From the NCBI GenBank assembly GCA_020723285.1, contig DYJE01000019.1, positions 15,074-79,073 of the forward strand: a stretch of 64,000 nt of DNA, read 5' to 3'. Source of the DNA: Desulforapulum autotrophicum. GTDB taxonomy: Bacteria > Desulfobacterota > Desulfobacteria > Desulfobacterales > Desulfolunaceae. Position 1 is the stretch's first letter, and each line of letters opens with the position of its first letter. The notes under the pieces were generated by a model. The model was not told the DNA's origin and searched no databases. It saw only the letters and a program-made list of their open reading frames with translations. Below, in pieces: positions 7,774 to 42,905 of the stretch. The position numbers and the translations under genes were made by a program.

Positions 7774-7815
7774 GGGGTCCTTGTTCCTTCGCTGTCCGGC
7801 AATGAATGAGCTCAC

Positions 7816-7829
7816 TGGTAACGTTACCA
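7816..7829. promoter_or_regulatory. Perfect 14-bp palindrome TGGTAACGTTACCA in a divergent intergenic region
   Basis: Read directly. It lies between the activator gene and the 8040 operon. Confidence 0.3.
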
Positions 7830-7954
7830 TAACGCTACCCCATCCTATGTTGCGCAACCCGTAAAATCAAGAATTCTTTCACACGAAGGCACAACCATCA
7901 CCATATGACTGTTATCATTATCCATTTTCATCAATCCACCACCGTTTACAATTC

Positions 7955-20030: not shown

Positions 20031-22172
20031 ATGGCATGGAAGGATCTTTCATTCAGAGTCAAACTGATGGCGGGTTTCGGTTTGCTTGTTGTTTTAATGG
20101 TCATCAGCTCCCTGGTGACCGTAACCGGGCTTTCAAACCTCAACAGCACCAGAAAAGCCCTGGCGCGTTCGGTCAGCGTGGAAAAGGAACTGACCCAAAA
20201 AATTGCCGATCACCACATCTGGGTCAACGCGGTGTATTCAGCCCTGATGGATACCACGAAAACACAGCTGGATGTTGAAACCGACGACCACCGCTGCAGG
20301 CTGGGGCAATGGTTGTACGGCAAAGAGCATGAGAAACTGGAGGCCGAGTTGCCAAACGAGGCGGAAGCCTTGAAATCCCTTGAAACCTCCCACCTCGCGC
20401 TCCATGAATCGGCGATAAAAATCAACGCCCTGATCGGCGGAAGAACACCGGAAACAAACGCCGACATCATGACCCAGGTCAACCCGGTCATCACGTCCGA
20501 AACGGTCCCGGCCCTCCGTCAGGTCGAGAGCACCATGGACGCCCTCCTTGCAAAAATCGAGGGCAGGCAGAAGCTGGCCAACGAAACCATCGACCGAATC
20601 CTTCAAAGCACACGAAGAACCGTGATCGCCGTATCATGTGCCGTGTTGTTCGCCGTGATCCTCATCAGCATTTTCATGTCCCGTTATATCCTTTCCCGGA
20701 TCATCTTGCTGAAGGACTACGCAAAAAAAATGTCCGGCGGGGATTTCACCCACACCCTCACATGGGGCCAAAAGGATGAATTCGGTGAACTGGCAGATTC
20801 ACTGAACGTCACGTCGGACAAACTGGGCCGGATGTTTTCCGTCATCACGTCCGAAGTCATCAGCCTTTCTTCATCGTCCAACACCATGTTCACCATTTCC
20901 GGCCAGCTTGAAAAAGGGGTGGTCGAGATGACCGACCGGTCTTTCACCGTGGCCGCCGCCGCCGAGGAAATGAGCAGCAACATGAACACCGTGGCCGCCG
21001 CCAGCGAGGAATCCTCCACCAGCATCACCCTGGTGGCAGCGGCCACGGAGGAAATGTCCTCGTCGGTCACCGACATCGCGGAACACCTGGCCAGGGCACG
21101 GTCCGTGGCCCTGAAAGCGGTGTCCAAATCGGGAACAGCCTCGGAAAAAGTCAACGATCTCGGCGGAGCCGCCGCCGAGATCAGCAAGGTCACGGAAGTC
21201 ATCACGGAAATTTCCGAACAGACCAACCTTCTGGCCCTGAACGCCACCATCGAGGCGGCCAGGGCCGGTGAGGCCGGAAAAGGTTTCGCGGTGGTGGCCA
21301 ATGAAATCAAGGAACTGGCCCGGCAGACCTCCCTGGCCACCCAGGACATCAAGGACAAGGTCAAGGGCATCCAGGACAACACGGCCCAGACCTCCGATGA
21401 AATCAAGGAAATCACCCAGGTCATCCACGATGTGAACGATATCGTGGCCACCATCGCCACCTCGGTGGATGAACAGGCCAAAGCCACCCGTGAAATCGCG
21501 GGCAACGTGTCCCAGGCCGCCACGGGCATTCAGGAAGTCAATGAAAACGTAAGCCAGTGCTCCCTGGTGGCTTCTGAAATCGCGAGGGATATCGCCCATG
21601 TCAACGGCATCGCCAACACCATCAAATCCGGAAGCCGGAATGTCAAGGAAAACGCAGGGGAACTGTCCGACTTTGCACGGAAAGTCAAGGACATGGTGGG
21701 TATCATCAAGCTTCCTGATCCTGGGACCGCCGTGTCCGGCGGCGACCAGGACCTGAAGGACGTCCCGCCGCTGATCGTTTTTGACAGCAGCATCCGGCTG
21801 GGCCTTGGCGACATCGACAAACAGCATGAAAAACTTGTGAACCTCATCAACCAGCTTCACCGGATCATGAAACTGAAGATGGGACACACACGGGCCGCCG
21901 CCATCCTGGAAGAACTGGCCAATTACACCACCACCCATTTCGCCTTCGAAGAAAAAATCATGCAGGAACACCAGTACGAGGGCCTTGCGGACCACCGTCA
22001 CAAACACAAGGACCTGCTTGAAAAGGTCGTGGATTTCAAGACCCGTTTCGACAGCGGCAATGCCATGCTGACCATGGATCTCATGGATTTTCTCAAAGAC
22101 TGGCTTGTGAACCACATCCAGGGAACGGACCGGAAATACGCCCCTTTTTTTAAAAGTAAAGGGATATCCTAA
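20031..22172 (+). CDS. Methyl-accepting chemotaxis protein with N-terminal CZB-like zinc-binding domain and C-terminal hemerythrin domain
   Basis: Two TM helices, HAMP, and the MCP signalling hairpin ([28 protein letters not shown]). CZB signature DHHIW...[11 protein letters not shown]...SHLALHES lies between the TMs. C-terminal hemerythrin motifs HFAFEE...HRHKHKDLL...[14 protein letters not shown]. Confidence 0.85.
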
Positions 22173-22681: not shown

Positions 22682-23077
22682 ATGTTACCGATGTTCATCC
22701 TGATTGTTGACGATTCATTACCTATGCGGAAAGTCATTAAAAAAACAACCGTGGCCGCAGGATTTTCAAGTGCAACCTTTGCTGAGGCTGCCAACGGTTC
22801 AGAAGCTATGAACATCCTCAAGACCCAAAAGATTGACATGCTGATAACCGGTCACAACATGCCCAGGATGAAGGGCCTTGAACTGGTGACCTGGATGAAA
22901 GCTGATTCATCGTTAAATGCCATTCCCGTTATCGTTGTCACGGCCGAAGGAAGCCGCGAAAGACTAAAGGAATTCATGAACCTGGCTATAGAGGGTTATC
23001 TACTTAAACCGTTCACCCCGGAAAAACTCTGCCAGGCCATCATTCCATGTTGCAATCAAAAGGTAAATTTATCATGA
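22682..23077 (+). CDS. CheY-like receiver with Gly at the phospho-acceptor position
   Basis: IVDDS, VVTAEG and LLKPF are conserved, but the DWNMP-type motif reads TGHNMP (residue 57 is Gly, codon 22850-22852). Confidence 0.75.
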   Translation: MLPMFILIVDDSLPMRKVIKKTTVAAGFSSATFAEAANGSEAMNILKTQKIDMLITGHNMPRMKGLELVTWMKADSSLNAIPVIVVTAEGSRERLKEFMNLAIEGYLLKPFTPEKLCQAIIPCCNQKVNLS

Positions 23078-24444
23078 ACATGGATTATAAACTGCTATCC
23101 GATCAATTTGAATCCATCCTGGATCATCTGCCTGCCCTTGTTTTCTACAAAGACAGGGAAAACCGGTTTATCCATGTCAACCAATATGTTGCCGATGCAT
23201 ACAATCGGCCGAAGCATGATCTCAAAGGCGTCAGCCTCTTTGATCTCACATCCCGGGAAGAAGCGGAAAAATACCATAGGGATGATCTGGAGGTCATGGA
23301 AAAGGGTATTGCAAAACTGAACATCGAAGAACCCTGGAATACCCGGAACGGATTGCGCTGGGTTTGCACCAGTAAAATCCCTTTTGTTGATGATCACGGA
23401 AAAATTATTGGTGTGATAGGCATTTCCACGGACATTACCGAGCGGAAAAGGGCCGATGAGCGGATCAAGGAATTGATCCACAAGCTTGCCGTGGATAAGG
23501 ATTTCGCCGAAAAAAATTCCTTAACAGACAGCCTGACCCGCATTCCGAACCGCCGACATTTCGACGAGCGGCTGGCCCGGGAATTTTTCAGGATCAAGCG
23601 AACCGGCGGTTTGCTGTCGCTGATCATCATCGACATCGACCATTTTAAAAAATACAACGATTTTTACGGACACCTTGCGGGAGACGAGTGCCTGTTCCGT
23701 GTGGCCACAGCCATCAAATCCGCCGTGTTCAGGCCCTCGGATTTTTCCGCCCGATACGGCGGAGAAGAATTTGTGGCGCTCCTGCCGGATACGGACGGTG
23801 AAGGCGCCCAAGTCATCGCAGACCGTATCCTCAAGGATGTCGTGGCTCTGAACATTCCCCATGAACATTCGGATCACGCGGCATGCGTCACGGTGAGCCT
23901 TGGAATCGCCACTGCCCGTCCGGATCACTTATCGACTCCGGAAAGCCTGGTCCTCCGCGCGGACAAGGCCCTGTACGAAGCGAAAAAAAACGGGCGAAAC
24001 CGCTACGCCGTGGGGGGTTATGAAACTAACGCGTCCTCTGAAGACCAGGGCTTCATGAACCTTGTGTGGCACAACAGCAACAAGTGCGGAAACCCCATCA
24101 TCGACAGCCAGCATGAAAACCTCTATAAACTGTCCAACAGACTGATCTATTTCATCAGCAACGGAAAAGAAAAAACCCAGTGCTCCACGCTGTTGAAAAA
24201 CCTGCTGCACGATATCCAGCGTCATTTCCAGGACGAAGAAACCCTTCTCGACAGCGTCCGCTATCCCCTTACGGAAGAGCACCGGCATATTCATGGAAAA
24301 CTTCTGACCGGAGCTCATCGCCTGATTGACGCATTCAACAGCGATGAACTGAAAATCGAAGACCTGATCAAATACATCGCAGTGGACGTGATTCTCGAAC
24401 ATCTGATCATCGAGGATAAAAAATATTTTCACTTTCTGGAATGA
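23074..24444 (+). CDS. PAS-GGDEF diguanylate cyclase with C-terminal hemerythrin-like domain
   Basis: GGEEF active site with the RPSD I-site 5 residues upstream. The C-terminus has QHENL...HFQDEE...EHRHIHGKL...EHLIIEDKKY. ATGA overlap with the preceding gene. Confidence 0.85.
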   Translation: MNMDYKLLSDQFESILDHLPALVFYKDRENRFIHVNQYVADAYNRPKHDLKGVSLFDLTSREEAEKYHRDDLEVMEKGIAKLNIEEPWNTRNGLRWVCTSKIPFVDDHGKIIGVIGISTDITERKRADERIKELIHKLAVDKDFAEKNSLTDSLTRIPNRRHFDERLAREFFRIKRTGGLLSLIIIDIDHFKKYNDFYGHLAGDECLFRVATAIKSAVFRPSDFSARYGGEEFVALLPDTDGEGAQVIADRILKDVVALNIPHEHSDHAACVTVSLGIATARPDHLSTPESLVLRADKALYEAKKNGRNRYAVGGYETNASSEDQGFMNLVWHNSNKCGNPIIDSQHENLYKLSNRLIYFISNGKEKTQCSTLLKNLLHDIQRHFQDEETLLDSVRYPLTEEHRHIHGKLLTGAHRLIDAFNSDELKIEDLIKYIAVDVILEHLIIEDKKYFHFLE

Positions 24445-31047: not shown

Positions 31048-31935
31048 ATGTACGACATGGACGCAGATAACATGATGCACACCCTTACATCGTTCAAGGA
31101 TCTTCCCACCCTTCCGGTCATCGCCCTCGAAATCAACAGACTGCTGGCCAGCGACACGACAAGCGTAAACAACCTGAGCCGGATCATCGCAAAAGATCAG
31201 GCCATTGTATCGAAACTTCTCAAACTGGTGAACTCGTCGTTTTTCGGAGTGAGGTCCAAGGTTTCATCGGTAGAGGAAGCGGTGGTCCGGCTTGGATTCA
31301 ACTCCGTGAGGAACGTGGTGGTGTCCGTCAGCATTTTCGAATCCCTGACCCTTGCCCACCCCGAAGACCTGGGTTTCAGCCTGGTGGAATTCTGGGAGCA
31401 TTCCATCGCTGTGGCCGTCACCAGCCGGTATCTTTCAGAAAAAACAGGTTTACAAGACCCCGACGACTGTTTCGTGGCAGGCCTTCTCCATGATATCGGC
31501 CTCATCGTCATTGCCCGGTGTTTTCCTGAAAGCCTGGTGAATATCCTGCGAAAAATCAAAGAGCGGAACGTTTCCCTGTATGACATTGAAAAAGAAGTTC
31601 TCCCCATCCGCCACAACAAAATCGGCGAAATTCTTGCCAAAAAATGGCAGCTGCCTTCTTCGGTCTGCGACGCCCTGAAATATCACCACGCGCCCAACCG
31701 AAGTGCTGCAAACCCCGAGCTGCTCACGCTGATCCATCTTGGCGATGTGATCACCCGGCGCTTTTTCATCACAACCATCAATCCTGAAACGAACAGCGCA
31801 TCCCCTGTTCTATCAAGCATCGGCGCATCCGCGGAAAAAAAACTGGATCTGATGTATCAAAATGTGAATCTCTGGTTTCCCGGTGTGCGGGAAACCATCC
31901 GGGAGGCCTGCGAATTCTTCATCAGACACGAATGA
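31048..31935 (+). CDS. HDOD-domain signalling protein
   Basis: LPTLPVIALEI...DQAIVSKLLKLVNSSFFG...AGLLHDIG is typical of HDOD. The ATG at 31048 follows AGAGAGG. Confidence 0.8.
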   Translation: MYDMDADNMMHTLTSFKDLPTLPVIALEINRLLASDTTSVNNLSRIIAKDQAIVSKLLKLVNSSFFGVRSKVSSVEEAVVRLGFNSVRNVVVSVSIFESLTLAHPEDLGFSLVEFWEHSIAVAVTSRYLSEKTGLQDPDDCFVAGLLHDIGLIVIARCFPESLVNILRKIKERNVSLYDIEKEVLPIRHNKIGEILAKKWQLPSSVCDALKYHHAPNRSAANPELLTLIHLGDVITRRFFITTINPETNSASPVLSSIGASAEKKLDLMYQNVNLWFPGVRETIREACEFFIRHE

Positions 31936-32003
31936 CGAAATACTTGAAAAGAATGGTGAATGCCCACGAAAACAGCGTCCGTCATCGCAGGCATGACCGT
32001 CCT

Positions 32004-32102
32004 TTACGGGGTCAGTTTTTCAATCCTCACCGCACAGGCCTTGAATTCCGGGGTCATGGTGTAGGGGTCCACCGCCGGATGGGTCAGCCAGTTGGCGTTA
32101 CC
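32004..32102 (-). pseudogene. fdhA: Displaced 3' end (last 32 codons) of the fdhA gene at 48240-50864
   Basis: The minus strand reads GNANWLTHPAVDPYTMTPEFKACAVRIEKLTP-stop, the canonical C-terminus of molybdopterin oxidoreductases. An in-frame TAG and AT-rich DNA lie immediately upstream. It joins onto ...MAFHFREGN of the truncated fdhA. Confidence 0.8.
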
Positions 32103-32426
32103 TATATTTTACACTTCCAAACACTTAATGTGGCCCATTACATCAAGGAGCGTATCAATGGAATTATTTCAATGTACCTGTTAATGAAGAAGGAGAAAAA
32201 TTTTTAAAGTCAATAACCAACATTGGCTGATGAGTTCAAAATCAATAATTATAAGTTATTTATCACCCCTGATTGTAATTTATACTTTATATTATACTGA
32301 AACTACAATATAATTGTATGGTTGCTAATGGTTATAGCAACGACAAACTTCTTCTGCGTTTCGCTTGATAGGTTCAGCAAAAAAAATAACCGCATTTGTG
32401 ATATTTTTAATTAATTTTTACGTTTT

Positions 32427-32440
32427 TTGATTTACGTCAA
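32427..32440 (+). promoter_or_regulatory. CRP/FNR-family (HcpR-like) box TTGATTTACGTCAA upstream of hcp
   Basis: TTGAT-N4-GTCAA palindrome, followed after exactly 22 nt by TATGTA (32463-32468), which is class-II geometry. Confidence 0.6.
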
Positions 32441-32580
32441 AGTATTTATTTGACCGGGTTTATATGTATAAAATTAAAATTTTTGATAAACTCGTTTCCG
32501 ATTTAGATATTGATGTAAATTTATCCAACACCAAAGCAGAAGATAACGGCATTCAACCCTATTAAACAAGGAGGCACGAC

Positions 32581-34242
32581 ATGTTTTGTTTTCAATGTCA
32601 GGAAACCATGAAAAACACCGGTTGCACATCTAAAGGTATGTGTGGAAAACCGGAAGAAACCGCCAATCTTCAGGATCTGCTGATTTTTGTCATGAAAGGC
32701 ATCGCGGTTTATTCCGAGAAATTGAACGAACTGGGGGCAGCAGATCGCAGCAACGACTTGTTCGTTGCCCAGGGCCTGTTTGCCACCATCACCAACGCCA
32801 ACTGGGCTGACGCACGGTTCGTCGAACTGATCGAAGAGGGTTTGAATCGCCGGGACAAGGCCAGAGCCGATTTTTTCGCGGCGCATAAAGCCAAAAACGG
32901 CAAGGATTTTGACGGGGCGCTTCCGGAAGCGGCCGTCTGGACCGGGGATGCGGCGGCGTTCGCGGAAAAGGCGAAACAGGTGGGAATCCTGGCCACGGAA
33001 AACGACGATGTGCGTTCATTACGTGAACTTTTAACCATCGGACTCAAAGGCGTTGCCGCTTATGCGGAACATGCCGCTGTTCTGGGTTATCAGAAACCGG
33101 AAATCAATGATTTCATCATGCAGGCACTGGCATCCACCACCAAAGACCTCTCCGTGGATGACATGATTTCCCTGGTGATGAAATGCGGCGAAACAGCCGT
33201 AACCACCATGGCTCTGCTGGATGAGGCAAACACCAGCACCTACGGCCATCCCGAAATCACCGAGGTCAACATCGGGGTGAGAAAAAACCCGGGCATCCTG
33301 ATCTCCGGCCATGATCTCAAGGATATGGACGAGCTGCTCCGGCAGACCCAAGGGACGGGTGTGGACGTGTACACCCACGGAGAAATGCTTCCGGCCAACT
33401 ATTATCCGGCGTTCAAAGCATACGATCATTTTGTGGGCAATTACGGAGGGTCTTGGTGGCATCAGAACGAGGAATTTGAATCGTTCAACGGGCCGATTCT
33501 CCTGACCACCAACTGTCTTATTCCCTTGAAAAAAACAAACACCTATCTGGACCGTCTGTATACCACCGGTATTGTGGGTTACGACGGAGCCGCCCATGTG
33601 GCTGACCGCCCGGCCGGAGGGACCAAAGATTTTTCAGCTCTGATCAGCAAAGCCAAAAGCTGTGCAGCTCCCACAGAGCTTGAAACAGGAAGCATCACCG
33701 GCGGTTTTGCCCACAACCAGGTGCTGGCCCTGGCCGACAAGGTGGTTGACGCGGTCAAATCCGGTGCCATCAAACGATTCGTGGTTATGGCCGGATGTGA
33801 CGGACGACACAAAACCCGGAGTTATTTTACGGAAGTCGCGGAAAACCTTCCCAAAGACACAGTGATCCTCACCGCAGGCTGCGCCAAATACCGTTACAAC
33901 AAACTGGCCCTGGGTGACATTGGCGGAATTCCCCGTGTTCTGGATGCCGGGCAGTGCAACGACAGCTATTCCCTGGCCGTGATCGCCCTGAAACTCAAGG
34001 AAGTGTTCGGTCTCGCCGACATCAACGAACTGCCGATTTCCTTTGATATTGCCTGGTACGAACAGAAAGCCGTGGCGGTCCTTCTGGCCCTTCTGTTTCT
34101 CGGGGTGAAAGGCATCCGGCTGGGTCCCACACTTCCGGCTTTCCTGTCTCCCACGGTGGCTGGTGTTCTTGTGGAAAAGTTCAACATCAAACCCATCGGA
34201 ACCGTGGAAGAAGATATCGCGGCCATGATGGCGGGAAAATAA
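32581..34242 (+). CDS. hcp: Hybrid-cluster protein (hydroxylamine reductase)
   Basis: N-terminal MFCFQCQET...GCT..GMCGK cluster motif, 553 aa, strong RBS AAGGAGG. Confidence 0.95.
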
Positions 34243-34266
34243 CCCAAACATATTGAAATAAAATAG

Positions 34267-34306
34267 TCCGCAGGTGAAACCAGGATTATGACCCTTCACC
34301 TGCGGA
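34267..34306 (+). terminator. 12-bp-stem hairpin after hcp
   Basis: TCCGCAGGTGAA ... TTCACCTGCGGA. No clear T-tract follows. Confidence 0.4.
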
Positions 34307-34456
34307 TCACACAGTGAAAAAAGTTTGTTTAGCCAACACGTGGCGAAAACATCACCCTCCGGATCAACCGACCCGCTCTTCCTGAGTTTTTTTACGGTCA
34401 TCGATGACCCTTAAAACGATCTATAAAAACGCCACATTTTCAAGGAGGTATTTGCC

Positions 34457-36697
34457 ATGGCAAATCCACGTTTCAGGGCTTTTTTTCTTTTTGTCCTCGT
34501 TCTGACCTTCGGGGTCTTGATTTTCGGAGGTTATCTGATCAACAAGGAAAAACCCCCCATTCCCCAAACGGTGGTATCGTCTGACGGCACGGTGCTGTTT
34601 ACAGGCGAAGACATCATCAACGGACAGAACTATTATTTCAGCCGGGGCGGTCAGCATATCGGGACCATCTGGGGCCACGGTTCCTATCTGGCTCCTGACT
34701 GGTCCGCGGACTTTCTCCACCGGATGGGAATTTTTCTGGCGGGTCGTTATCACGGTCTATCACCTGAACAGGCCGGAACATTTTCCCAGTCTGATTTTGA
34801 AGCCCTTGATCCGGTTGAACAGGCGCGGCTCAAGGCTCAGGTGATATCCGAAATCAAGACCAATCGTTATGACGGGCAAAAAGAGGTCCTGACCTTCACG
34901 CCGTTTCAGGCGGAAGCCATGAATGCGCTGACAGCTTACTACACAGCGCTGTTCCGTGAAGGAAACGAGCGAATGGGCCTGCAACCGGGCATCGTCCGCA
35001 GCGATGAAGAGGGACGGCGCGTGTCTTCTTTCTTTGCCTGGCTGGCCTGGGCCGCCGGAACCCTCAGACAAGGGACGGACCATACCTATACCACCAACTG
35101 GCCCTATGATCCCCTGGTGGGCAACGAACCCCTTCCGGACTTCGTAATCTGGTCCATCGTGAGCGTTGTCCTTTTGATTCTAGGCATTGCGGCTTCGCTT
35201 TTCGTCTATGTCCGTTACATCGGAAGGGACGATGAAAAAACCGTCCTGGTCAGGGATTTTCCTGAACCCACACCCACACCCAGCCAGAAAGCCACCCTTT
35301 TCTACTTTATCACCGCCATCGCCCTTTTCCTTCTTCAGATCGGACTGGGTGCCGCAACTGCCCATTACACAGTGGAAGGCACCCATTTTTACGGGATTCC
35401 CCTTGGCGGTATTCTGCCCTATGCGGCGGTAAGGACCTGGCATCTGCAACTGGGGCTTTTCTTCATCGCCACCTGTTTTCTGGCCGCAGGCCTTTTTATC
35501 GGGCCGTTTGTAGGCAAAGAGCCCAAGGGGCAGGGAACCTGGGTGGTGATCCTTTTTGCCGCCGTTGTCGTGGTGGTTTTGGGGACTCTGGGCGGGACCT
35601 GGTTGTCGGTTACCGGATCATTCGGAGACCAGGGATTTTATCTTGGTCATCAAGGTTATGAATTCATCGAATTGGGGAGGGTCTGGCAGTTGCTCCTCAT
35701 CGTGGGCATGATCATCTGGCTGATTCTGGTGTTCAGGGCCATCCGACCGGCCATTGCCGGGGAAGCGGACAGCGGCGGGCTCACACACATGCTGCTTTAC
35801 AGTTCCGTCACTATCCCGCTTTTCTACATGGCCGGATTATTGTACGGCAAAGGGAGTCACCTGTCAGATGCGGAATACTGGCGCTGGTGGGTGGTTCATC
35901 TGTGGGTGGAAGGTTTTTTTGAAGTGTTCGCCACCGTAATCATGGCGTTCCTCCTGTCCCACATCGGAGCGGTCAGTAAAAAATTCGCACTGACCACCAT
36001 TTATTTTACTGTGTTCCTTTATCTTGGAAGCGGCGTTCTCGGCACGTTCCATCATCTTTACTGGACCGGCGCACCCACAGCCATCATCGCCCTGGGCGCG
36101 GTGTTTTCCGCTCTCGAAGTGGTCCCGCTTTCCCTTCTGGGGTTCGAGGCTGCCCACAACCTTCGGGTGATCCAAGAGGGTGGGAAAGGCTACGCTTATA
36201 AATGGCCCATCTACTTTTTTGTGTCCGTGTCGTTCTGGAACCTTTTGGGGGCCGGGGTTTTCGGTTTTCTCATCAACCCGCCCGTGGTTCTGTACTATGC
36301 CCAGGGCATCAACACCACGCCCATCCATTCCCATGCCGCCCTGTTCGGAGTATACGGTCTTTTGGCCATTTCCCTGCTTCTTTTTTCCGTCCGCCATATC
36401 GTAACCAGGGCCTCCTGGTCGGACACACTTCTCAAATGGAGTTTCTGGGGCTTGAACGGCGGACTGGCCTGTATGCTGGTTTTCAGTCTGATTCCATCAG
36501 GATTCTATCAGCTTTATTACGCCGTCAAATACGGCCTGTGGTTTGCTCGCAGTCCTGAAATCGCTTCAGGCCCGGTGATCCGGACCTTAAGCTGGTGCCG
36601 CATGGTTCCGGACATGATTTTTGCTGCGGGGGCATTTTTGCTTTTCGCGTTTCTTGCCCGGGCTGTCTGGTTTAGTTTTTTCAGAAAACAGATATGA
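34457..36697 (+). CDS. norZ: Quinol-dependent nitric-oxide reductase large subunit (qNOR, NorZ/NorB-type)
   Basis: 746 aa with an N-terminal TM plus periplasmic extension, then a 12-TM haem-copper-oxidase core containing HLWVEGFFEVF and HHLYW motifs. Confidence 0.85.
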   Translation: MANPRFRAFFLFVLVLTFGVLIFGGYLINKEKPPIPQTVVSSDGTVLFTGEDIINGQNYYFSRGGQHIGTIWGHGSYLAPDWSADFLHRMGIFLAGRYHGLSPEQAGTFSQSDFEALDPVEQARLKAQVISEIKTNRYDGQKEVLTFTPFQAEAMNALTAYYTALFREGNERMGLQPGIVRSDEEGRRVSSFFAWLAWAAGTLRQGTDHTYTTNWPYDPLVGNEPLPDFVIWSIVSVVLLILGIAASLFVYVRYIGRDDEKTVLVRDFPEPTPTPSQKATLFYFITAIALFLLQIGLGAATAHYTVEGTHFYGIPLGGILPYAAVRTWHLQLGLFFIATCFLAAGLFIGPFVGKEPKGQGTWVVILFAAVVVVVLGTLGGTWLSVTGSFGDQGFYLGHQGYEFIELGRVWQLLLIVGMIIWLILVFRAIRPAIAGEADSGGLTHMLLYSSVTIPLFYMAGLLYGKGSHLSDAEYWRWWVVHLWVEGFFEVFATVIMAFLLSHIGAVSKKFALTTIYFTVFLYLGSGVLGTFHHLYWTGAPTAIIALGAVFSALEVVPLSLLGFEAAHNLRVIQEGGKGYAYKWPIYFFVSVSFWNLLGAGVFGFLINPPVVLYYAQGINTTPIHSHAALFGVYGLLAISLLLFSVRHIVTRASWSDTLLKWSFWGLNGGLACMLVFSLIPSGFYQLYYAVKYGLWFARSPEIASGPVIRTLSWCRMVPDMIFAAGAFLLFAFLARAVWFSFFRKQI

Positions 36698-36736
36698 TCG
36701 AAGAGTTCTAAAGGGTTGGAAGATTGTAATACAAAG

Positions 36737-36769
36737 CCATGGGAGGCCACTTTACAGGACCTTCCATGG
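36737..36769. terminator. Hairpin between convergent norZ and nrfA
   Basis: CCATGGGAGG ... CCTTCCATGG, a 10-bp stem with one G-U pair. Confidence 0.35.
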
Positions 36770-36779
36770 CATGCCGCAA

Positions 36780-38402
36780 CTAATGAGTCTGCGTGTTTAT
36801 GGGTGTTGCGGATTTGGACGCTGTTTCATGACCGTCCGGCACTGATTTGACAGAGGCCTTTCCGATCTTCTTGTTCAGATCCCACATCAAAGGTGTCTTG
36901 GGCGATAGCGGAATATACTTGAACCAGGGATGTGTCGTCATGTGTTTCGGATCCATCTGGAGTTCCCGGCTGTGTTTCAGAATCGGGGGCACCCGGGTTT
37001 TGATATCTTCACTGATGGACTTGGCTATGGTGAACGATGTGGCTTTAACCGCCGTGTCCACGGCATTCTGGCTGAAACGCTGCGATGAGGCCAGGGTATC
37101 AAGTGCTTTTGAGGGATTGTGGAACCCCACACTGTTTTCAGCGGATACAAGATCCCAGAAAAATTGGCCTTTACGGCACCATTTTCTCGCATTTGTCATC
37201 AACTCGTTGTAATTATCAGGCCTTGGTCCTTTGTATTCTGATGCCATGCGAATGGCTTCATGGGCTTTGACAGAAATCTCCTGGGCCGCCAGAAGTTGAT
37301 TCCATACCTTGTTCTGGGTATAGAGTACACGTTGTTTCAAAAATTCAGGGGTTTTGTCCGTATGACACTGACGGCATGCGTTCATTTCAGGATCTTTCAA
37401 TGGAGACGTCCAGTGGTGATTGGATATTTTCTTTTTTCCGTCAAGGCGTGTGTAGCTCATATGACAATCGGCGCAGGTTACACCTGCTGAGCCATGAACA
37501 CCGTTAGACCACGTTTCGTATTCCGGGTGCTGGGCTTTCAGCATGGGAGTCTGTGACACCGGATGTACCCAATCGACGAAGTACCCTTCAAATCCCGGTG
37601 TTTTATTGTCTCCCTTATCAGAATAGTAGTTATACATGTCTTCAGGGTCCATTCCGTCTTTCCACGGGAACACAACCTTTTTGTACGGTCCGAAACTCTT
37701 GTCCTGAAAATAGTATTCCACATGGCACTGACCACAAACCAAGGCCCGTTGTTCATTTCTTGGGAGTTTTTCAAATTCCTTGTTCTGGCTTTTCAAATAA
37801 TCCTTCAACGGCACACTGTACAGATTAAGGGCCATGGTCTTTGGATCATGACAGTTGGCGCAACCGATGGTGTCGTCGTCCAGATCGACTTTTTCCCGGA
37901 ACTGATTGAAATCTTTCGCCCAGAAATCATCGCCCTCTTCTTTGAGAAAAGTGTTCATTTTGGCGGTCTTGCAGTTCATGCACGTAGCCGGAAGGCCCGC
38001 TTTTTCGCTATATCTATTGACCCGGTCAATGCTTAAAATATCTTTCATGGCATGGGTGTGGCCTCGCGCTTCACGGTATTCATAACTGAACGGATACCCA
38101 AGCCAGAGGTTTTTTAAATAAGGCTGAGCGTGTTTATACCCTTCGGGGAGAGGATTGACATTGTCATGTTTGTTGTATGGAACCGAACCCTTATACTCGG
38201 TCATGATCTCTGATTCGTTATTCCTTAGATACGTTTCATACTGAAAAGGGAAAAGGGCCTGAAAGGCTGAATTTCTGATTTCATCTGTATTCAAATTGGT
38301 GCTGTAGGTTGGGGGAATGGGTTCATTGGCTTTTGAACAACCTCCCAGGGTCGCCATCAGCAAAACACATAAGAACAAAACGATCATTCGAAGATTACAC
38401 AT
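36780..38402 (-). CDS. nrfA: Pentahaem cytochrome c nitrite reductase NrfA
   Basis: CMNCK (the Lys-ligated catalytic haem signature) plus CANCH, CGQCH, CADCH and CRQCH. Lipobox-like LGGCS. The start at 38402 or 38387 is ambiguous, and the track ORF extends to 38450. Confidence 0.9.
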   Translation of the reverse strand: MCNLRMIVLFLCVLLMATLGGCSKANEPIPPTYSTNLNTDEIRNSAFQALFPFQYETYLRNNESEIMTEYKGSVPYNKHDNVNPLPEGYKHAQPYLKNLWLGYPFSYEYREARGHTHAMKDILSIDRVNRYSEKAGLPATCMNCKTAKMNTFLKEEGDDFWAKDFNQFREKVDLDDDTIGCANCHDPKTMALNLYSVPLKDYLKSQNKEFEKLPRNEQRALVCGQCHVEYYFQDKSFGPYKKVVFPWKDGMDPEDMYNYYSDKGDNKTPGFEGYFVDWVHPVSQTPMLKAQHPEYETWSNGVHGSAGVTCADCHMSYTRLDGKKKISNHHWTSPLKDPEMNACRQCHTDKTPEFLKQRVLYTQNKVWNQLLAAQEISVKAHEAIRMASEYKGPRPDNYNELMTNARKWCRKGQFFWDLVSAENSVGFHNPSKALDTLASSQRFSQNAVDTAVKATSFTIAKSISEDIKTRVPPILKHSRELQMDPKHMTTHPWFKYIPLSPKTPLMWDLNKKIGKASVKSVPDGHETASKSATPINTQTH

Positions 38403-38874
38403 CAGCAGCGCTCCTTTTCGCAATGGGGATTTTAGGACTGTGTGGAACATGACGGTGGCAATCCGTACAATGTGCTTTAGACTGCATATTCACTTCTTTG
38501 ACCACGGTGGAATGGCACCGGAGGCAGTTTTCCTGAACAACCTCCATCGTGTTTTTTCCGGGATGAATGTAATCGGGAACCTGTTTTGTGGCTGTCACAA
38601 ACATGTCCCTTGCACCTTCTTTGGTTTTAAAAGGGATTTTCCGGATTATATCATGTGGCGCATGACATTCGTTGCAGGCCTGTTTACTGTGAACAGATTT
38701 GCTGTGGGACAATGCGGCTTCCGCCATGGAGTGGCATCCGCCGCAGAATGCCGCCTGGTCCGTTGCTGTCATGGCGCGGGCTGAACACAAGGTGATCACA
38801 GCACCTGCCGCAAACGGCAACAGAATCAAAAGCCAGGCCTTTTCTCCCTTCATTTTCTTCCATGATAATGCCAT
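38395..38874 (-). CDS. nrfH: NapC/NirT-family tetrahaem quinol dehydrogenase NrfH
   Basis: One TM helix and four CXXCH motifs (CGGCH, CNECH, CLRCH, CTDCH). The ATG at 38874 is preceded by AGGAGG. Confidence 0.9.
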   Translation of the reverse strand: MALSWKKMKGEKAWLLILLPFAAGAVITLCSARAMTATDQAAFCGGCHSMAEAALSHSKSVHSKQACNECHAPHDIIRKIPFKTKEGARDMFVTATKQVPDYIHPGKNTMEVVQENCLRCHSTVVKEVNMQSKAHCTDCHRHVPHSPKIPIAKRSAADV

Positions 38875-38959
38875 GGAGCCTCCTTTGTTTTGTTTGAAAC
38901 AATCAGGATTCCTACGAAATACAACCAAACAACCACCAACTGCTATAACACCTTGAATC

Positions 38960-39655
38960 TTAGTGCGGGAGCATAAGCCCGCAAAGAACATCGTGCATCA
39001 CCCGGTTGATACGTTCAAACCGTTCAGGCTCTGAAAGTATTTCATGTTCAGCCTGGACAAAATAACTCCCATCCAGATCGGACCCGCAATGGTTTATCAA
39101 AGCCCTTGCCGATTCCATGGTCGTTTCCAGATGAAACTGTAACCCCACAATTCGGTTATCTTTGATAAACCCCTGATGGTCACAGGCCATGCTCGACGCA
39201 AGCGGCGTGGCTCCTTGGGGGATTTCAAACCGGTCTCCATGCCAGTGAAACACATTGAGCTTTTCAGGAAAGCATCCCGCCAGTACCGTATTGGAGATCC
39301 TGGGATCGATGGATAGTGGAAACCATCCAATTTCCCGGTGTTTGTTTTTAGTGACGGATGCGCCCATCACCTCTGCGATCAACTGGGCTCCAAGACAGAT
39401 GCCCAGAATCATTTTCCCGCGAGCAATGGCGTGTTTGATGAAGATTTTTTCATCATGCAAAAAGGGGTATTCTTTTTCGTCGTATACCCCCATGGGGCCA
39501 CCCATGATGATGAGAAAATCAAACGCATCCATATCCGGCAGGCGGTCGCCTCGGTACATATGGCTCGATGTCATCTCATGGTGGCCTGATAAAAAAAATG
39601 GTTCCATACTCCCAAGGTCTTCAAAGGGAACGTGTTGCAGATGATGGACACGCAT
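38960..39655 (-). CDS. Class I glutamine amidotransferase-like protein
   Basis: Nucleophile elbow GICLGAQL and a later FHLE His/Glu region. Confidence 0.7.
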   Translation of the reverse strand: MRVHHLQHVPFEDLGSMEPFFLSGHHEMTSSHMYRGDRLPDMDAFDFLIIMGGPMGVYDEKEYPFLHDEKIFIKHAIARGKMILGICLGAQLIAEVMGASVTKNKHREIGWFPLSIDPRISNTVLAGCFPEKLNVFHWHGDRFEIPQGATPLASSMACDHQGFIKDNRIVGLQFHLETTMESARALINHCGSDLDGSYFVQAEHEILSEPERFERINRVMHDVLCGLMLPH

Positions 39656-39739
39656 ATCGAATTCCTTTCATATGTTTTAATGGTTTGGCTGAATATGTTC
39701 ATGAGTCCACCGAAGCTTTCGTGCCCATGTATATCATAT

Positions 39740-40303
39740 TTACACTTTTTTTCGGTATAAATCAGGGTAAAGTTTCATCGCACACTCGCGACAAAGCCCA
39801 TGGCTAAAATCGGCTTCGGAGTGTTTTTTAATATACCCTTCCATTCGGCTCCAATGCCCCTCTTCATCCTTTATGCGTTTGCATGATGAGCAAATCGATA
39901 ATAGCCCGCTCAAAATTTTGATATCTTCCAGGGCCTTTTCCCTCTGAAGAACTTCTATCTCCCTTTTTTGTTCAATCGTTTTTCTATGAAGTCCTATGGA
40001 GGCCGTTACCCATATTGCCAATAAAGAAATGGCCCTGTTGAAAATGACTTTCCACATGTCTGAGACCTGGGGTTTGTAAAAACACATGCCAATGGTAAAA
40101 AGGGATGAAATTACAGTAACAAAAATTGTAAACTCTTTTCGGGGTGCCCACAGAGAAAACAAGACAGCCACAATATAGAGTACTCCAACAGCAACACCAA
40201 GAGGAATGATGGCATCAAGAGACATAATAAAAATGATATAAAAAAAGCATATAAAATAAATTGAATAGTCGTTAAGGATTTTTTTGAGTCTCTGGACTGG
40301 CAT
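39740..40303 (-). CDS. 4-TM membrane protein with coiled coil and C-terminal CxxC...H...CxxC module
   Basis: Four hydrophobic helices, then ICSSCKRIKDEEGHWSRMEGYIKKHSEADFSHGLCRECAMKLY. Confidence 0.6.
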   Translation of the reverse strand: MPVQRLKKILNDYSIYFICFFYIIFIMSLDAIIPLGVAVGVLYIVAVLFSLWAPRKEFTIFVTVISSLFTIGMCFYKPQVSDMWKVIFNRAISLLAIWVTASIGLHRKTIEQKREIEVLQREKALEDIKILSGLLSICSSCKRIKDEEGHWSRMEGYIKKHSEADFSHGLCRECAMKLYPDLYRKKV

Positions 40304-40370
40304 GGATACCCCACCCTGTTTGAAATTTGATGTTCTTCACACTTTTTCAGATTAAGCACGCGCCACTTTT

Positions 40371-41423
40371 TTAACGGTTCTTTCCCATATGGGCAATAAA
40401 CATCCGGTATTGCTGGTCGGGAACGCTGCTTTTCCAATGCCCGGTAATGATGGCGGTATAGACCAGGATCAGGTATAAAGCGATAATCATAAGCCCCAGT
40501 TTTTTTTCCGTCCACCTCATTTTCAACCCGGTTGTTTTCAACATTAACGTTCCGTCAACCGGGCAACTGTCCACACAATCCATACAGCCGGTGCATTCCG
40601 GTGTTCTAACTTTTGGGATTTGCCCCACAAGGATATGATTCGGGCAGATGGCCGTACATTTACCGCATGCGATACATGATCCGTTATCCCTTGAAATATG
40701 TGTCGGGCCGGCATATGAAACAATCCCGGCCAGTGCCCCATAGGGGCAAAGATATCGGCACCAGAAATTCCGAACAAACAGGGAGAAACAGACGAGAAGG
40801 CTAAGGCAGATGAGAGTTGTTCCCGACATGTGGGTAAAAAACAACAGCATTCGCACATCGGACGTTTTATAGTAAAAACTATTGAGAAACGCATTGGTTT
40901 CAACAGTATTCATTTGTACAATAATCCATAGAAAAAACCCCAGAAAAATATATTTGACGCTTCTTAACGGCAGATCTACCCACCGTGGAAAAATGAAAGA
41001 GGGCATACCCCAATGATGGCCAAGCCTGAATATCCATTCCGACAAGGTGCCTACAGGGCAGAACCATCCGCAAAACGATTTGCTGAGCAGAAAAGAAGCC
41101 ACCAATGCGAATCCGAATATTACCATTGCCGCCGGATGAATACTGTCCCACTGAGCGGTGGTGATAAAATATTTCCAGCCCAGCAACGCACCAATGGGCA
41201 GGAAACCCTCAACGCCATGGGGTTTTGGAATGGTGATGGGCACTGCTTGCGCGGCTTGATGGACATACAAGGCGAATTGAACGCCTGTTGCAAGAGTCGC
41301 GATAAAAACACCCGTCTGGACCCATGACCGGACGCGGTGTCGATGAAACAATAGACTTAAGGTCTTTATCCGGCCACGATTCAAAGGTTGATTTTTTTTA
41401 TCGGAGATACCCATGACGTCCAT
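40371..41423 (-). CDS. NapH/MauN-type membrane polyferredoxin (quinol dehydrogenase-like)
   Basis: Two CX3CP motifs (CGWFCPVG, CRYLCPYG) in the membrane part, and two 4Fe-4S motifs (CIACGKCTAICP, CTGCMDCVDSCP). Confidence 0.75.
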   Translation of the reverse strand: MDVMGISDKKNQPLNRGRIKTLSLLFHRHRVRSWVQTGVFIATLATGVQFALYVHQAAQAVPITIPKPHGVEGFLPIGALLGWKYFITTAQWDSIHPAAMVIFGFALVASFLLSKSFCGWFCPVGTLSEWIFRLGHHWGMPSFIFPRWVDLPLRSVKYIFLGFFLWIIVQMNTVETNAFLNSFYYKTSDVRMLLFFTHMSGTTLICLSLLVCFSLFVRNFWCRYLCPYGALAGIVSYAGPTHISRDNGSCIACGKCTAICPNHILVGQIPKVRTPECTGCMDCVDSCPVDGTLMLKTTGLKMRWTEKKLGLMIIALYLILVYTAIITGHWKSSVPDQQYRMFIAHMGKNR

Positions 41424-41472
41424 GTCAATATCCTTTTGACCGTTATTTCATTCGTTCCATAGATTTTAACCG

Positions 41473-42009
41473 TTAAAGCCAGAACTCCGGATACCGCCTG
41501 CTTTTCGGCAGATTGTTCACCAGAAGGGCCACGAGAACCATAATGACCGCACCCATCCCCACGGGAACCACGGCGTAGAGATACCCCAGTGCGTGAATTT
41601 TTGAACTTCCGGTGACGGCGATCAGCGCTGTTGCACCACCCGGCGGATGGAGGGTTTTTGTGGCATGCATAAACGCGATGGCCGTTGCCACGGCAAGGGG
41701 AGAGGCAAACCACAGGTGGTTATGAAACAATTTGAATGCGGTGACTCCGACTATCGCGGAAATAATATGGCCGCCGATAACGTTTCTCGGCTGGGCCAGG
41801 GGGCTTCGAATCGCACCATAGACAAGCACGGCACTTGCCCCGAACGATCCGATGATCATAACAAGGTCACTTGTGTAGAACAGTTTGTCATCCAGATACG
41901 CCATGGGGATGATTCCCAAAAAAGCGCCGATCCATGACCAGAATATTTCAGAGACTTTAACACCCGGCGGGCTTTGGGTCGTTCCCTTCATTTTCGAGAA
42001 GTACTGCAT
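41473..42009 (-). CDS. HPP-family membrane protein (candidate nitrite channel/transporter)
   Basis: HPPGGATAL signature and 4-5 TM helices. Confidence 0.75.
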   Translation of the reverse strand: MQYFSKMKGTTQSPPGVKVSEIFWSWIGAFLGIIPMAYLDDKLFYTSDLVMIIGSFGASAVLVYGAIRSPLAQPRNVIGGHIISAIVGVTAFKLFHNHLWFASPLAVATAIAFMHATKTLHPPGGATALIAVTGSSKIHALGYLYAVVPVGMGAVIMVLVALLVNNLPKSRRYPEFWL

Positions 42010-42021
42010 GGCTGATTCCTT

Positions 42022-42630
42022 TCAAACATTATCTAGGCCGAAGGATTGCACGATATCCGAACGGGTTACGATGCCGCAGAGGTCTGAATTTTTATCAAGG
42101 ACCGGAACACGGTTGATTTTCTGGCAGTTAAAAATGGCCGCTATTTCGGAAAGCGGGGTGTTTTCATTTACCGTGATGGCTGGAGTTGTCATGATATCGC
42201 CGACCTTGCGGGTGTTTAACGAAGAGATCATGCAGCCGCTGTGATTCATGCACCGGGATAAGATGGCCATGAACGACTGGTTAACAGAGATACCGGCTTC
42301 GCGTAAAATATCTTTCTCAGAAAGAACCCCCACCACCTTGGAAAAAACATCCATCACCGGCAGACCGGTGATATTGTTTTCAGCCATGGTTCCCGCCGCG
42401 TCGCCAAGAAGGGCATCGATCCGGGTGTAAATCACCGGCCGACTCATGACATCTTTGGCTGTGCGTTTATTTGCCAAACGATTCAGCGCATGATGATAGG
42501 ATACTTTGTATATTTCGATGAAGTCTGCTGGTGTAATATCAATATATCCGTCAATCGCGGACATGGCTTCAAGAATATCCGCCTCTGAAATATCAATAGA
42601 GGATTGTTTGAACGTTTTTTCTGAATCCAT
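42022..42630 (-). CDS. CBS-pair domain protein
   Basis: Two CBS repeats (VMSRPVIY...ITGLPVMD and IMTTPAITV...INRVPVLD). The ATG at 42630 follows AAGGA. The track start at 42717 lies inside the predicted -10 hexamer. Confidence 0.75.
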   Translation of the reverse strand: MDSEKTFKQSSIDISEADILEAMSAIDGYIDITPADFIEIYKVSYHHALNRLANKRTAKDVMSRPVIYTRIDALLGDAAGTMAENNITGLPVMDVFSKVVGVLSEKDILREAGISVNQSFMAILSRCMNHSGCMISSLNTRKVGDIMTTPAITVNENTPLSEIAAIFNCQKINRVPVLDKNSDLCGIVTRSDIVQSFGLDNV

Positions 42631-42740
42631 GTTTATCCTTTTTAAGTTTTTTCCAATTTGGAGTTTGGTTTTTTTAGTAGAAGCGTCATAATTCAACAAT
42701 AATGCACGGTAGATCATAGTCGCATTAGCTTGTATTGTAT

Positions 42741-42754
42741 TTGACTTAAATCAA
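42741..42754 (-). promoter_or_regulatory. CRP/FNR-family box (minus-strand reading TTGATTTAAGTCAA), promoter-proximal copy
   Basis: Differs from the hcp box at one central base. It is followed after exactly 22 nt by TATGAT (42718-42713). Confidence 0.6.
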
Positions 42755-42793
42755 TTTGGGGAAGAATCAGTGTCGCATTAGCTTGTATTGTAT

Positions 42794-42807
42794 TTGACTT
42801 AAATCAA
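42794..42807 (-). promoter_or_regulatory. Second, duplicated copy of the CRP/FNR-family box
   Basis: An identical 14-mer in the second 53-bp unit. The downstream hexamer there is ACTGAT. Confidence 0.5.
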
Positions 42808-42905
42808 TTTGGGGAAGAATCAGTCAGGGAACACTCTGAAGCTGAATACAGTTATTGCAAATAGAATGCGAGTTTAAATAGGTCTTGGTTCATAATGGCT
42901 AAAAA

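What the first reader, a model, noticed from the sequence alone, without database searches (positions are those of the whole stretch)
32427..32468. CRP/FNR-type box with class-II spacing in the AT-rich hcp leader
Seen: TTGATTTACGTCAA (32427-32440), then exactly 22 nt, then TATGTA. This lies 113 nt upstream of the hcp ATG, in a strikingly AT-rich 480-bp stretch. Established: hcp genes in many anaerobes are controlled by CRP/FNR-family regulators (HcpR) or NsrR through TTGAT/TTGTG-type palindromes. Inference: this is the hcp promoter. The same box recurs upstream of CBS-HPP (next finding). No CRP/FNR-family gene is present in the window, so the regulator would act in trans.
Basis: partly seen in the sequence, partly recalled or inferred. 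Interest (0 to 1): 0.6.

Follow-up and report, generated by a model that had tools for sequence, protein, structure and literature searches.

The report
HcpR-type activator box at hcp promoter
The 14-base palindrome in front of the hybrid-cluster-protein gene is real and is very probably the docking site of an HcpR-type (CRP/FNR family) nitrosative-stress regulator, an arrangement predicted for related bacteria in 2005, so this is a clean but ordinary example.

Summary
TTGATTTACGTCAA sits at 32427-32440, followed by exactly 22 nt and TATGTA, 113 nt before the hcp ATG, in DNA of 28-29% G+C.

It is not chance. Shuffles of the hcp intergenic region give such a box in 0.6% of trials. A weight matrix scores only three sites in 64 kb near 20; the next best scores 9.

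Comparative evidence:
- 33 of 80 hcp loci from other genomes carry the same palindrome in front of hcp or its operon, about 45-fold denser than elsewhere in those loci.
- A TAnnnT hexamer lies exactly 22 nt downstream in 15 of 35 sites.
- The box co-occurs with an adjacent CRP/FNR gene whose recognition helix reads (P/S)E-x-x-SR (13 of 14 loci). It never co-occurs with an adjacent Rrf2 gene (0 of 9).

This matches the published HcpR motif wyTTGACnnnnGTCAArw (Rodionov 2005).

The second promoter (CBS-HPP...nrfHA operon) has the same box, 22 nt, then TATGAT. Its two boxes come from a strain-specific 53-bp duplication.

No CRP/FNR gene lies in the window. The transcription start, the inducing signal and the regulator itself remain untested.

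The parts
32427..32440 (.). 14-bp palindromic operator TTGATTTACGTCAA (half-sites TTGAT / TTGAC), the predicted HcpR-type CRP/FNR binding site
   Evidence: (matrix score 20.8); motif match to PMC1274295
32463..32468 (+). Putative -10 hexamer TATGTA, exactly 22 nt after the box. This puts the box centre at -41.5 if transcription starts near 32475. The -35 position (32440-32445, AAGTAT) matches TTGACA in 1 of 6 bases.
   Evidence: spacer-22 enrichment in other genomes. The start site is not mapped.
32581..34242 (+). hcp, hybrid cluster protein / hydroxylamine reductase; RBS AGGAGG at 32569-32574
34457..36697 (+). Quinol-type nitric oxide reductase (NorB-like, with fused cytochrome-c-like domain). 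It lies 214 nt after hcp and has no box of its own, so it may be co-transcribed or read through.
   Evidence: hcp followed by qNor also in L060
42741..42754 (.). Proximal box of the CBS-HPP operon promoter. It reads TTGATTTAAGTCAA on the minus strand, followed there by 22 nt and TATGAT.
42713..42718 (-). Putative -10 TATGAT of the CBS-HPP operon promoter, 22 nt after the proximal box
   Evidence: identical in L082
42794..42807 (.). Distal box, a copy created by the 53-bp duplication. It is followed by ACTGAT instead of TATGAT. Its centre lies 53 bp upstream of the proximal box centre.
42713..42818 (.). Two tandem 53-bp units (96% identical), each carrying one box. A 98%-identical relative (L082) has a single unit.
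36780..42630 (-). Probable operon behind the second box. Order: CBS-pair protein (42022-42630; true ATG probably 42630), HPP membrane protein (41473-42009), NapH-like Fer4_5 protein (40371-41423), unknown 187-aa protein (39740-40303), class-I glutamine amidotransferase (38960-39655), NrfH (38395-38991), NrfA (36780-38450).
   Evidence: Gaps between genes are at most 84 nt and there is no further box. Co-transcription is not shown.

Best explanation
The palindrome is the operator of an HcpR-type regulator. This is a CRP/FNR-family protein of the HcpR1/DNR-like branch, with an FNR-like (P/S)E-x-x-SR recognition helix and no FNR cysteine cluster. It is encoded elsewhere in the genome.

The box sits where a class-II activator sits. 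Its centre is about 41.5 bp before the inferred start (near 32475). It overlaps a very poor -35 region and lies 22 nt before a -10-like TATGTA. A regulator dimer bound there would recruit RNA polymerase and switch on hcp, and possibly the downstream quinol NO reductase, when nitrite or NO is present.

The same regulator would drive the convergent operon CBS-HPP-NapH-like-unknown-GATase-nrfHA from an identically built promoter (box, 22 nt, TATGAT).

Shown: the sequence architecture, its conservation at orthologous promoters, and its linkage to CRP/FNR genes in other genomes.

Inferred: the start site, activation rather than repression, the signal, and the presence of the regulator in this genome.
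For: 1. The window's site and geometry are as described. Chance is about 0.6% for the hcp intergenic region and 0.25% for the CBS one. The three window sites score 19.7-20.8 and the next best scores 9.1.

2. In 80 hcp loci from other genomes there are 47 exact boxes in 1.08 Mb.
- 27 lie within 400 nt before hcp, in 25 loci.
- 8 more lie before operons that end in hcp.
- Density is 0.86 per kb upstream against 0.019 per kb elsewhere.
- Best-site scores are bimodal: 35 loci score above 14, the rest below 13.

3. TAnnnT lies exactly 22 nt after the box in 15 of 35 sites facing hcp (TATGTT, TATGAT, TATCAT, TATATT). No other spacer exceeds 5, and only 3 of 35 show it facing away.

4. A CRP/FNR gene (cNMP_binding plus HTH_Crp_2) lies next to hcp in 19 loci, often divergently.
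- 14 of these carry the helix (P/S)E(T/S)xSR.
- 13 of those 14 have a box scoring above 14. The 14th has TTAACATAAGTCAA.
- Loci with an adjacent Rrf2 gene: 0 of 9.

5. These regulators have 0-3 cysteines and no N-terminal cluster. DNR (3dkw) is among their best solved relatives.

6. Published match: an HcpR motif wyTTGACnnnnGTCAArw upstream of hcp/frdX in Geobacter, Desulfuromonas and Desulfotalea. Position 180 of the helix is Ser/Pro and Glu181 is kept. nrfHA belongs to the regulon in Geobacter and Desulfuromonas (PMC1274295).

7. Genes of the second operon recur with hcp or with boxes elsewhere.
- CBS-HPP lies beside hcp or qNor in L060, L046, L004, L028 and L041.
- The Fer4_5 homologue is preceded by a box in L058 and lies in the box-headed hcp operon of L036.
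- The homologue of the unknown 187-aa protein lies between two boxes in L052.
Against: - No transcription start is known. No usable RNA data exist for this organism.
- TATGTA lacks the final T of a -10. Overlapping TATAAA and TAAAAT hexamers 4-6 nt further on would put the box at -45.5 or -47.5.
- The AT-rich leader also contains other sigma-70-like matches, at chance frequency.
- No regulator gene is in the 64 kb, and its presence in the genome could not be checked.
- The 11 loci with the most similar Hcp proteins mostly lack the box (only L005 has it). Regulation of hcp therefore changes quickly between lineages.
- In Desulfovibrio desulfuricans one hcp regulator (HcpR2) is modelled as a repressor (PMC5701242), so activation is not guaranteed by family membership.
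Confidence: 0.78

Rival explanations
1. The box is bound by a different CRP/FNR paralogue, not an HcpR orthologue. Candidates are an oxygen- or redox-sensing FNR-like protein or a DNR/NnrR-like denitrification regulator. hcp and the nrf operon would then follow anaerobiosis or another cue rather than nitrosative stress.
For: TTGAT-N4-ATCAA is the generic FNR/DNR consensus (PMC1274295). Any family member with an E-x-x-SR helix could read it. The regulator is not in the window. Sulfate reducers carry several paralogues, five in D. desulfuricans (PMC5701242).
Against: In other genomes the regulator physically linked to box-bearing hcp promoters is one coherent group without the FNR cysteine cluster. 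The window's two targets are both nitrogen-oxide loci, and no other site occurs in 64 kb.
Confidence: 0.12
2. The box is a repressor operator. The protein occupies the -35 region in the absence of signal and leaves when NO damages its cofactor, as modelled for HcpR2 of Desulfovibrio desulfuricans.
For: The box overlaps the position where a -35 element would lie. A repression model exists for one hcp regulator (PMC5701242).
Against: The -35 position is very poor (AAGTAT, 1 of 6 matches), so the promoter looks activator-dependent. The strict 22-nt spacing conserved across genomes is the signature of class-II activation; a repressor would tolerate variable positions.
Confidence: 0.06
3. The palindrome is a chance product of AT-rich intergenic DNA and has no function.
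For: The leader has 28% G+C, where T/A-rich words are common. Relaxing the pattern by one mismatch gives 9 hits against 10.2 expected in the window.
Against: Exact-box chance is 0.6% and 0.25% for the two regions. The box is enriched about 45-fold at orthologous promoters. The spacing to a TATG hexamer is identical at both window promoters.
Confidence: 0.02

Closest known systems
[quoted passage not shown] 2005, PMC1274295)
   Same: The same palindrome class, located upstream of hcp. The regulon reaches nrfHA and, in Synechocystis, norB. Linked regulators in relatives carry P/S at position 180 and keep Glu181, exactly as published.
   Different: - This lineage is a Desulfobacterales-like genome from a subsurface metagenome.
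- The regulator is not adjacent.
- One half-site is TTGAT rather than TTGAC; both are used equally in my 35-site set.
- The second target operon starts with CBS-HPP and includes NapH-like and amidotransferase genes not listed in that paper's text.
Escherichia coli FNR class-II promoters (FNR box TTGAT-N4-ATCAA centred at -41.5); textbook knowledge, not tested here
   Same: Half-site sequence, dyad spacing, 22-nt distance to the -10, and a weak -35.
   Different: The hcp-linked regulators in relatives lack the N-terminal cysteine cluster that holds FNR's oxygen-labile [4Fe-4S]. The signal is therefore unlikely to be oxygen sensed that way.
DNR / NnrR, the NO-responsive CRP/FNR activators of denitrification genes in Pseudomonas and alpha-proteobacteria
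   Same: An FNR-like box and control of NO-handling genes. DNR (3dkw) is among the closest solved relatives of the hcp-linked regulators (E=1e-26). Rodionov's tree clusters HcpR1 with DNR.
   Different: The targets here are hcp, qNor and nrfHA of a non-denitrifying anaerobe, not nir/nor/nos clusters.
Desulfovibrio HcpR / HcpR1 (CRP-like box TGTGA-N6-TCACA) and Clostridia/Bacteroides HcpR2 (GTAAC-N4-GTTAC)
   Same: The same regulatory logic: a CRP/FNR protein controlling hcp.
   Different: The motifs differ. The window has no such sites at hcp. A GTAACCTAGGTTAC box with an adjacent CRP gene does appear in the Clostridiales locus L077, so the method can tell the types apart.

Membership tests
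HcpR1-type (FNR-like) operator of the HcpR regulon | Palindrome matching wyTTGACnnnnGTCAArw | tested here: met
   ttTTGATTTACGTCAAag. The core is exact except for the allowed T/C at position 5. It scores 20.8; sites from other genomes score 14.7-27.9. Motif taken from PMC1274295.
HcpR1-type (FNR-like) operator of the HcpR regulon | Located in the promoter region of hcp (or frdX-hcp), and conserved at orthologous promoters | tested here: met
   The box starts 154 nt before the hcp ATG. 33 of 80 other hcp loci carry the box before hcp or its operon, most at -75 to -190.
HcpR1-type (FNR-like) operator of the HcpR regulon | A cognate CRP/FNR regulator with Ser/Pro at position 180 and Glu at position 181 of the recognition helix, encoded in the same genome | not testable with these tools
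   Absent from the 64-kb window. The rest of the genome is not available. In relatives, 13 of 14 loci with such a regulator next to hcp have the box.
HcpR1-type (FNR-like) operator of the HcpR regulon | Induction of the target by nitrite or NO through the regulator | not testable with these tools
   No RNA runs exist for this organism. Only metatranscriptome contigs of a relative were found, and they cover coding sequence only.
Class-II CRP/FNR-dependent promoter | Site centred near -41.5 relative to the transcription start | tested here: inconclusive
   The start is not mapped. The geometry fits if TATGTA is the -10 (22-nt spacer), and spacer 22 is the strongly preferred one in other genomes (15 of 35). 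The hexamer lacks the final T.
Class-II CRP/FNR-dependent promoter | Weak or absent -35 hexamer, overlapped by the activator site | tested here: met
   AAGTAT at 32440-32445 (hcp) and ATACAA at the CBS promoter both match TTGACA poorly.
Oxygen-sensing FNR proper | Regulator with an N-terminal Cys cluster for a [4Fe-4S] centre | tested here: not met
   The hcp-linked regulators of relatives have 0-3 Cys and no N-terminal cluster. The window organism's own regulator is unseen.
NsrR (Rrf2) operator | Association of the site with an Rrf2-family regulator | tested here: not met
   None of the nine hcp loci with an adjacent Rrf2 gene has a box scoring above 13. The window contains no Rrf2 hit in the ORFs scanned.

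The most novel reading that the evidence does not exclude
In this Desulfobacterales lineage the HcpR regulon has been rewired to head a seven-gene operon. That operon joins a CBS-HPP pair (a possible regulated nitrite channel), a NapH-like quinol dehydrogenase, an unknown protein and an amidotransferase to the respiratory nitrite reductase NrfHA. In this particular strain, a very recent 53-bp tandem duplication has added a second regulator site five helical turns upstream. That would be a natural class-II to tandem-site (class-III-like) promoter conversion caught in the act.
Probability: 0.45. Interest if true: 0.4.

Novelty: new member of a known kind. Interest (0 to 1): 0.25.

Why it matters
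The result gives a confident regulatory annotation for the nitrogen-oxide island of an uncultured subsurface sulfate-reducer relative. hcp (probably with qNor) and a CBS-HPP...nrfHA operon appear to share one trans-acting CRP/FNR regulator.

It extends the 2005 comparative prediction to many more Desulfobacterota and Synergistaceae genomes, and adds a quantitative spacing rule: box, 22 nt, then the -10.

It also flags the CBS-HPP pair, a NapH-like protein and an unknown 187-aa protein as recurrent companions of hcp worth functional study.

It does not reveal a new mechanism.

Tried and rejected
- Mapping the start site from public reads. Only metagenomic DNA contigs and one metatranscriptome of a relative were found, and that one covers coding sequence only. 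No start could be read.
- Rfam scan of 31500-43500 at E up to 1: nothing, so there is no known riboswitch or sRNA in the long leader.
- Generic sigma-70 and terminator scan of the leader: 3 promoter-like hits against 2.7 expected, uninformative.
- One-mismatch pattern search in the window: 9 hits against 10.2 expected, so only exact or near-exact boxes carry signal.
- Metagenome scan with the CBS protein, to footprint the second promoter. Only one close relative (L082) was found; the rest are generic CBS pairs. L082 still resolved the duplication question.
- Search for the regulator in the window, by tblastn, a family HMM run with --max, and Pfam on all large ORFs: none.
- NCBIfam has no HcpR-specific model. 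The linked regulators hit only generic CRP/FNR models, below their cut-offs.
- I considered a sigma-54 promoter (two PAS-type enhancer-binding proteins are in the window). By eye, I saw no TGGCAC-N5-TTGC-like element in the leader.
- Strain variation in related populations: 9 substitutions fall in the leader and none in 32405-32516. With about 0.8 expected in the box-to--10 segment, this is not significant.

Full report
**Observation**

- TTGATTTACGTCAA lies at 32427-32440.
- A 22-nt spacer (AGTATTTATTTGACCGGGTTTA) follows.
- TATGTA lies at 32463-32468.
- The ATG of a 553-aa ORF lies at 32581, behind AGGAGG at 32569-32574.

The ORF is a hybrid cluster protein / hydroxylamine reductase: Pfam Prismane E=1e-173 and NCBIfam NF003658 at 831 bits against a cut-off of 367. 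G+C falls to 0.28-0.29 over 32200-32599, against about 0.5 in the flanks.

**Is it more than chance?**

The other two hits (42741-42754 and 42794-42807) lie in a 53-bp tandem duplication, so there are two independent occurrences, not three.

Dinucleotide shuffles give at least one box in 118 of 20000 trials for the hcp intergenic region. For the other intergenic region, with the duplication collapsed, the figure is 50 of 20000.

A 22-column weight matrix built only from other genomes' sites scores the three window sites 20.8, 19.7 and 19.7. The next best position in 64 kb scores 9.1. With one mismatch allowed, the pattern loses all signal: 9 hits against 10.2 expected.

**Context**

The window carries a nitrogen-oxide island.
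- On the plus strand, hcp (32581-34242) is followed after 214 nt by a quinol-type NO reductase (34457-36697; NorB cytochrome-c-like plus COX1 domains).
- Convergent on the minus strand lie seven genes: a CBS-pair protein, an HPP membrane protein, a NapH/NosR-like Fer4_5 protein, an unknown 187-aa protein, a class-I glutamine amidotransferase, NrfH and NrfA.
- The gaps between these seven genes are at most 84 nt.

HPP proteins have been shown to transport nitrite in cyanobacteria and chloroplasts (Maeda 2014, as cited in PMC7438415).

The listed ATG of the CBS ORF (42717) falls inside the putative -10. The likely true start is the ATG at 42630, behind AAGGA.

Read on the minus strand, the proximal box is followed by exactly 22 nt (ATACAATACAAGCTAATGCGAC) and TATGAT. 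The distal copy is followed by the same 22 nt and ACTGAT. Two unrelated promoters in the window therefore share box, 22 nt, TATG.

**Comparative evidence**

The Hcp protein retrieved 80 loci from one-genome-per-species collections. The best is 84% identical and the top hits are Desulfobacterales and Desulfatitalea. The window's own contig comes from a subsurface metagenome.

Where the boxes lie:
- Exact TTGAY-N4-RTCAA boxes number 47 in 1.08 Mb.
- 27 lie within 400 nt before hcp, in 25 loci.
- 8 more lie before operons in which hcp is a later gene.
- Only 4 lie inside long ORFs.
- Density is 0.86 per kb upstream of hcp against 0.019 per kb elsewhere.
- The best upstream score per locus is bimodal: 35 loci score above 14 and the rest below 13.

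Promoter geometry:
- TAnnnT lies exactly 22 nt after the box in 15 of 35 sites when read towards hcp (TATGTT, TATGAT, TATCAT, TATATT).
- No other spacer exceeds 5.
- Only 3 of 35 sites show it when read away from hcp.

This is the geometry of a class-II CRP/FNR promoter: the box spans -48 to -35, the spacer -34 to -13, and the hexamer -12 to -7 (textbook knowledge). The -35 position in the window is AAGTAT, 1 match of 6 to TTGACA, as expected for an activator-dependent promoter.

**The regulator in other genomes**

I clustered the ORFs around hcp. This gave a 19-member group of about 229-aa proteins with cNMP_binding and HTH_Crp_2 domains, often divergent from hcp.
- Fourteen carry the recognition helix (P/S)E(T/S)xSR.
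- Thirteen of those 14 loci have a box scoring above 14. The 14th has TTAACATAAGTCAA.
- Three members with a different helix (LYTASR type) have no box.
- Nine loci with an Rrf2 gene beside hcp have no box.
- The box-linked regulators contain 0-3 cysteines and no N-terminal cluster.
- Pseudomonas DNR (3dkw) is among their closest solved relatives.

About two thirds of box-bearing loci have no such gene within 8 kb. A regulator encoded elsewhere, as assumed for the window, is therefore common.

**The regulator in the window**

None is present. tblastn with all 19 proteins, and an HMM run without filters on the six-frame translation, give nothing better than E=0.51. Pfam scans of the large ORFs find sensor kinases, two PAS-type sigma-54 activators, and hemerythrin-domain MCP and GGDEF proteins, but no CRP/FNR or Rrf2 protein.

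**Comparison with the literature**

Rodionov et al. 2005 (PMC1274295) defined HcpR. For Geobacter, Desulfuromonas and Desulfotalea they reported:
- an FNR-like motif wyTTGACnnnnGTCAArw upstream of hcp and frdX;
- a link between that motif and replacement of Arg180 by Ser/Pro with Glu181 retained;
- the lack of the FNR cysteine motif;
- nrfHA as a member of the regulon in Geobacter and Desulfuromonas, and norB as an HcpR target in Synechocystis.

Every one of these points is reproduced here. The window's site is therefore a new instance of a known element.

The same data separate the other known types. The Clostridiales locus L077 shows GTAACCTAGGTTAC next to a CRP gene, which is the HcpR2 motif.

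Experimental work on Desulfovibrio shows that HcpR1 there binds TGTGA-N6-TCACA. It also models HcpR2 as an NO-labile repressor (PMC5701242). That is why I keep repression as a minor rival.

**The second operon**

Its genes recur with hcp or with boxes elsewhere.
- CBS-HPP pairs lie beside hcp or qNor in L060 (hcp-qNor-CBS-HPP, co-directional behind one box), L046, L004, L028 and L041.
- The Fer4_5 homologue is preceded by a box in L058 and sits in the box-headed hcp operon of L036.
- The homologue of the unknown 187-aa protein lies between two boxes in L052, after an hcp paralogue.

A metagenome contig 98% identical in the CBS protein (L082) has the same promoter with a single 53-bp unit: box, 22 nt, TATGAT. 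The duplication in the window is therefore recent and strain-specific. It places a second box 53 bp, about five helical turns, upstream of the first.

**What remains unshown**
- No RNA data allow the start site to be read.
- TATGTA lacks the final T of a -10, and overlapping TATAAA and TAAAAT hexamers offer alternatives 4-6 nt downstream.
- The eleven loci with the most similar Hcp mostly lack the box (only L005 has it). In several of them hcp follows a flavodiiron-type gene. Control of hcp therefore changes between close lineages.
- Whether qNor is co-transcribed with hcp is open. The 214-nt spacer holds a perfect 12-bp hairpin (34268-34307) but no box and no clear terminator.

**Verdict**

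The element is an HcpR-type CRP/FNR operator in class-II position at the hcp promoter, and it shares a small regulon with the CBS-HPP...nrfHA operon. It is a new member of a known kind. Interest is low to moderate. The strain-specific promoter duplication and the composition of the second operon are the only mildly novel aspects.

Noticed in passing
window 42713-42818: A 53-bp tandem duplication (96% identical units) duplicates the regulator box of the CBS-HPP promoter. The 98%-identical relative L082 has one unit only. The junction changes the distal TATGAT to ACTGAT.
   Followed up: yes
window 42630-42717: The longest ORF of the CBS protein starts at an ATG (42717) that lies inside the putative -10. 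The ATG at 42630, behind AAGGA, is the more likely start (202 aa).
   Followed up: partly
window 34268-34307: A perfect 12-bp inverted repeat (TCCGCAGGTGAA ... TTCACCTGCGGA, 16-nt loop) lies between hcp and the NO reductase gene, without a following T-run. It could be an RNA-stabilising or attenuating hairpin.
   Followed up: no
window 32101 and 32128-32170: Contigs of related populations (runs X2, X4) follow the AT-rich leader down to about 32101 and then diverge, so the synteny boundary lies there. A 43-nt piece (32128-32170) also matches, with 5 differences, a different 27.9-kb contig of the source metagenome.
   Followed up: no
window 31932-32207 and 32464-32565: A 91-aa ORF whose ATG overlaps the stop of the HDOD gene (ATGA) has no family hit. 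A 33-aa ORF called in the public assembly starts inside the putative -10. Both are probably not genes.
   Followed up: partly
window 20031-22172 and 23047-24444: A chemoreceptor and a PAS-GGDEF protein each end in a hemerythrin domain. They are possible O2/NO sensors, a few kb upstream of the nitrogen-oxide island.
   Followed up: no
window 6379-7857 (-) and 17733-19127 (+): Two PAS-domain sigma-54 enhancer-binding proteins. By eye I saw no sigma-54 promoter element in the hcp leader.
   Followed up: partly
L033 (-148, -102), L042 (-144, -103), L049 (-138) relative to hcp: Desulfuromonadales-like loci. L033 and L042 carry two boxes 41-46 bp apart. At the 22-nt position after the hcp-proximal box of all three there is a GGCAT-containing word (gtGGCATttt / ggGGCATtgt / gtGGCATgtt) instead of TAnnnT. 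This is a different, unexplained promoter design.
   Followed up: no
L077 -136 relative to hcp: GTAACCTAGGTTAC lies next to a CRP-family gene in a Clostridiales genome, the published HcpR2 motif. It serves as an internal control that motif types are separable.
   Followed up: partly
L046 11986-14345: The qNor homologue matches in two pieces (residues 26-451 and 451-745) separated by about 200 nt, suggesting a frameshift, an insertion or an assembly error.
   Followed up: no
window 42880-42900 vs L082: A 16-bp indel (TTTTTAGCCATTATGA, present in the window and absent in L082) lies just after the stop of the VTT/DedA-family gene.
   Followed up: no
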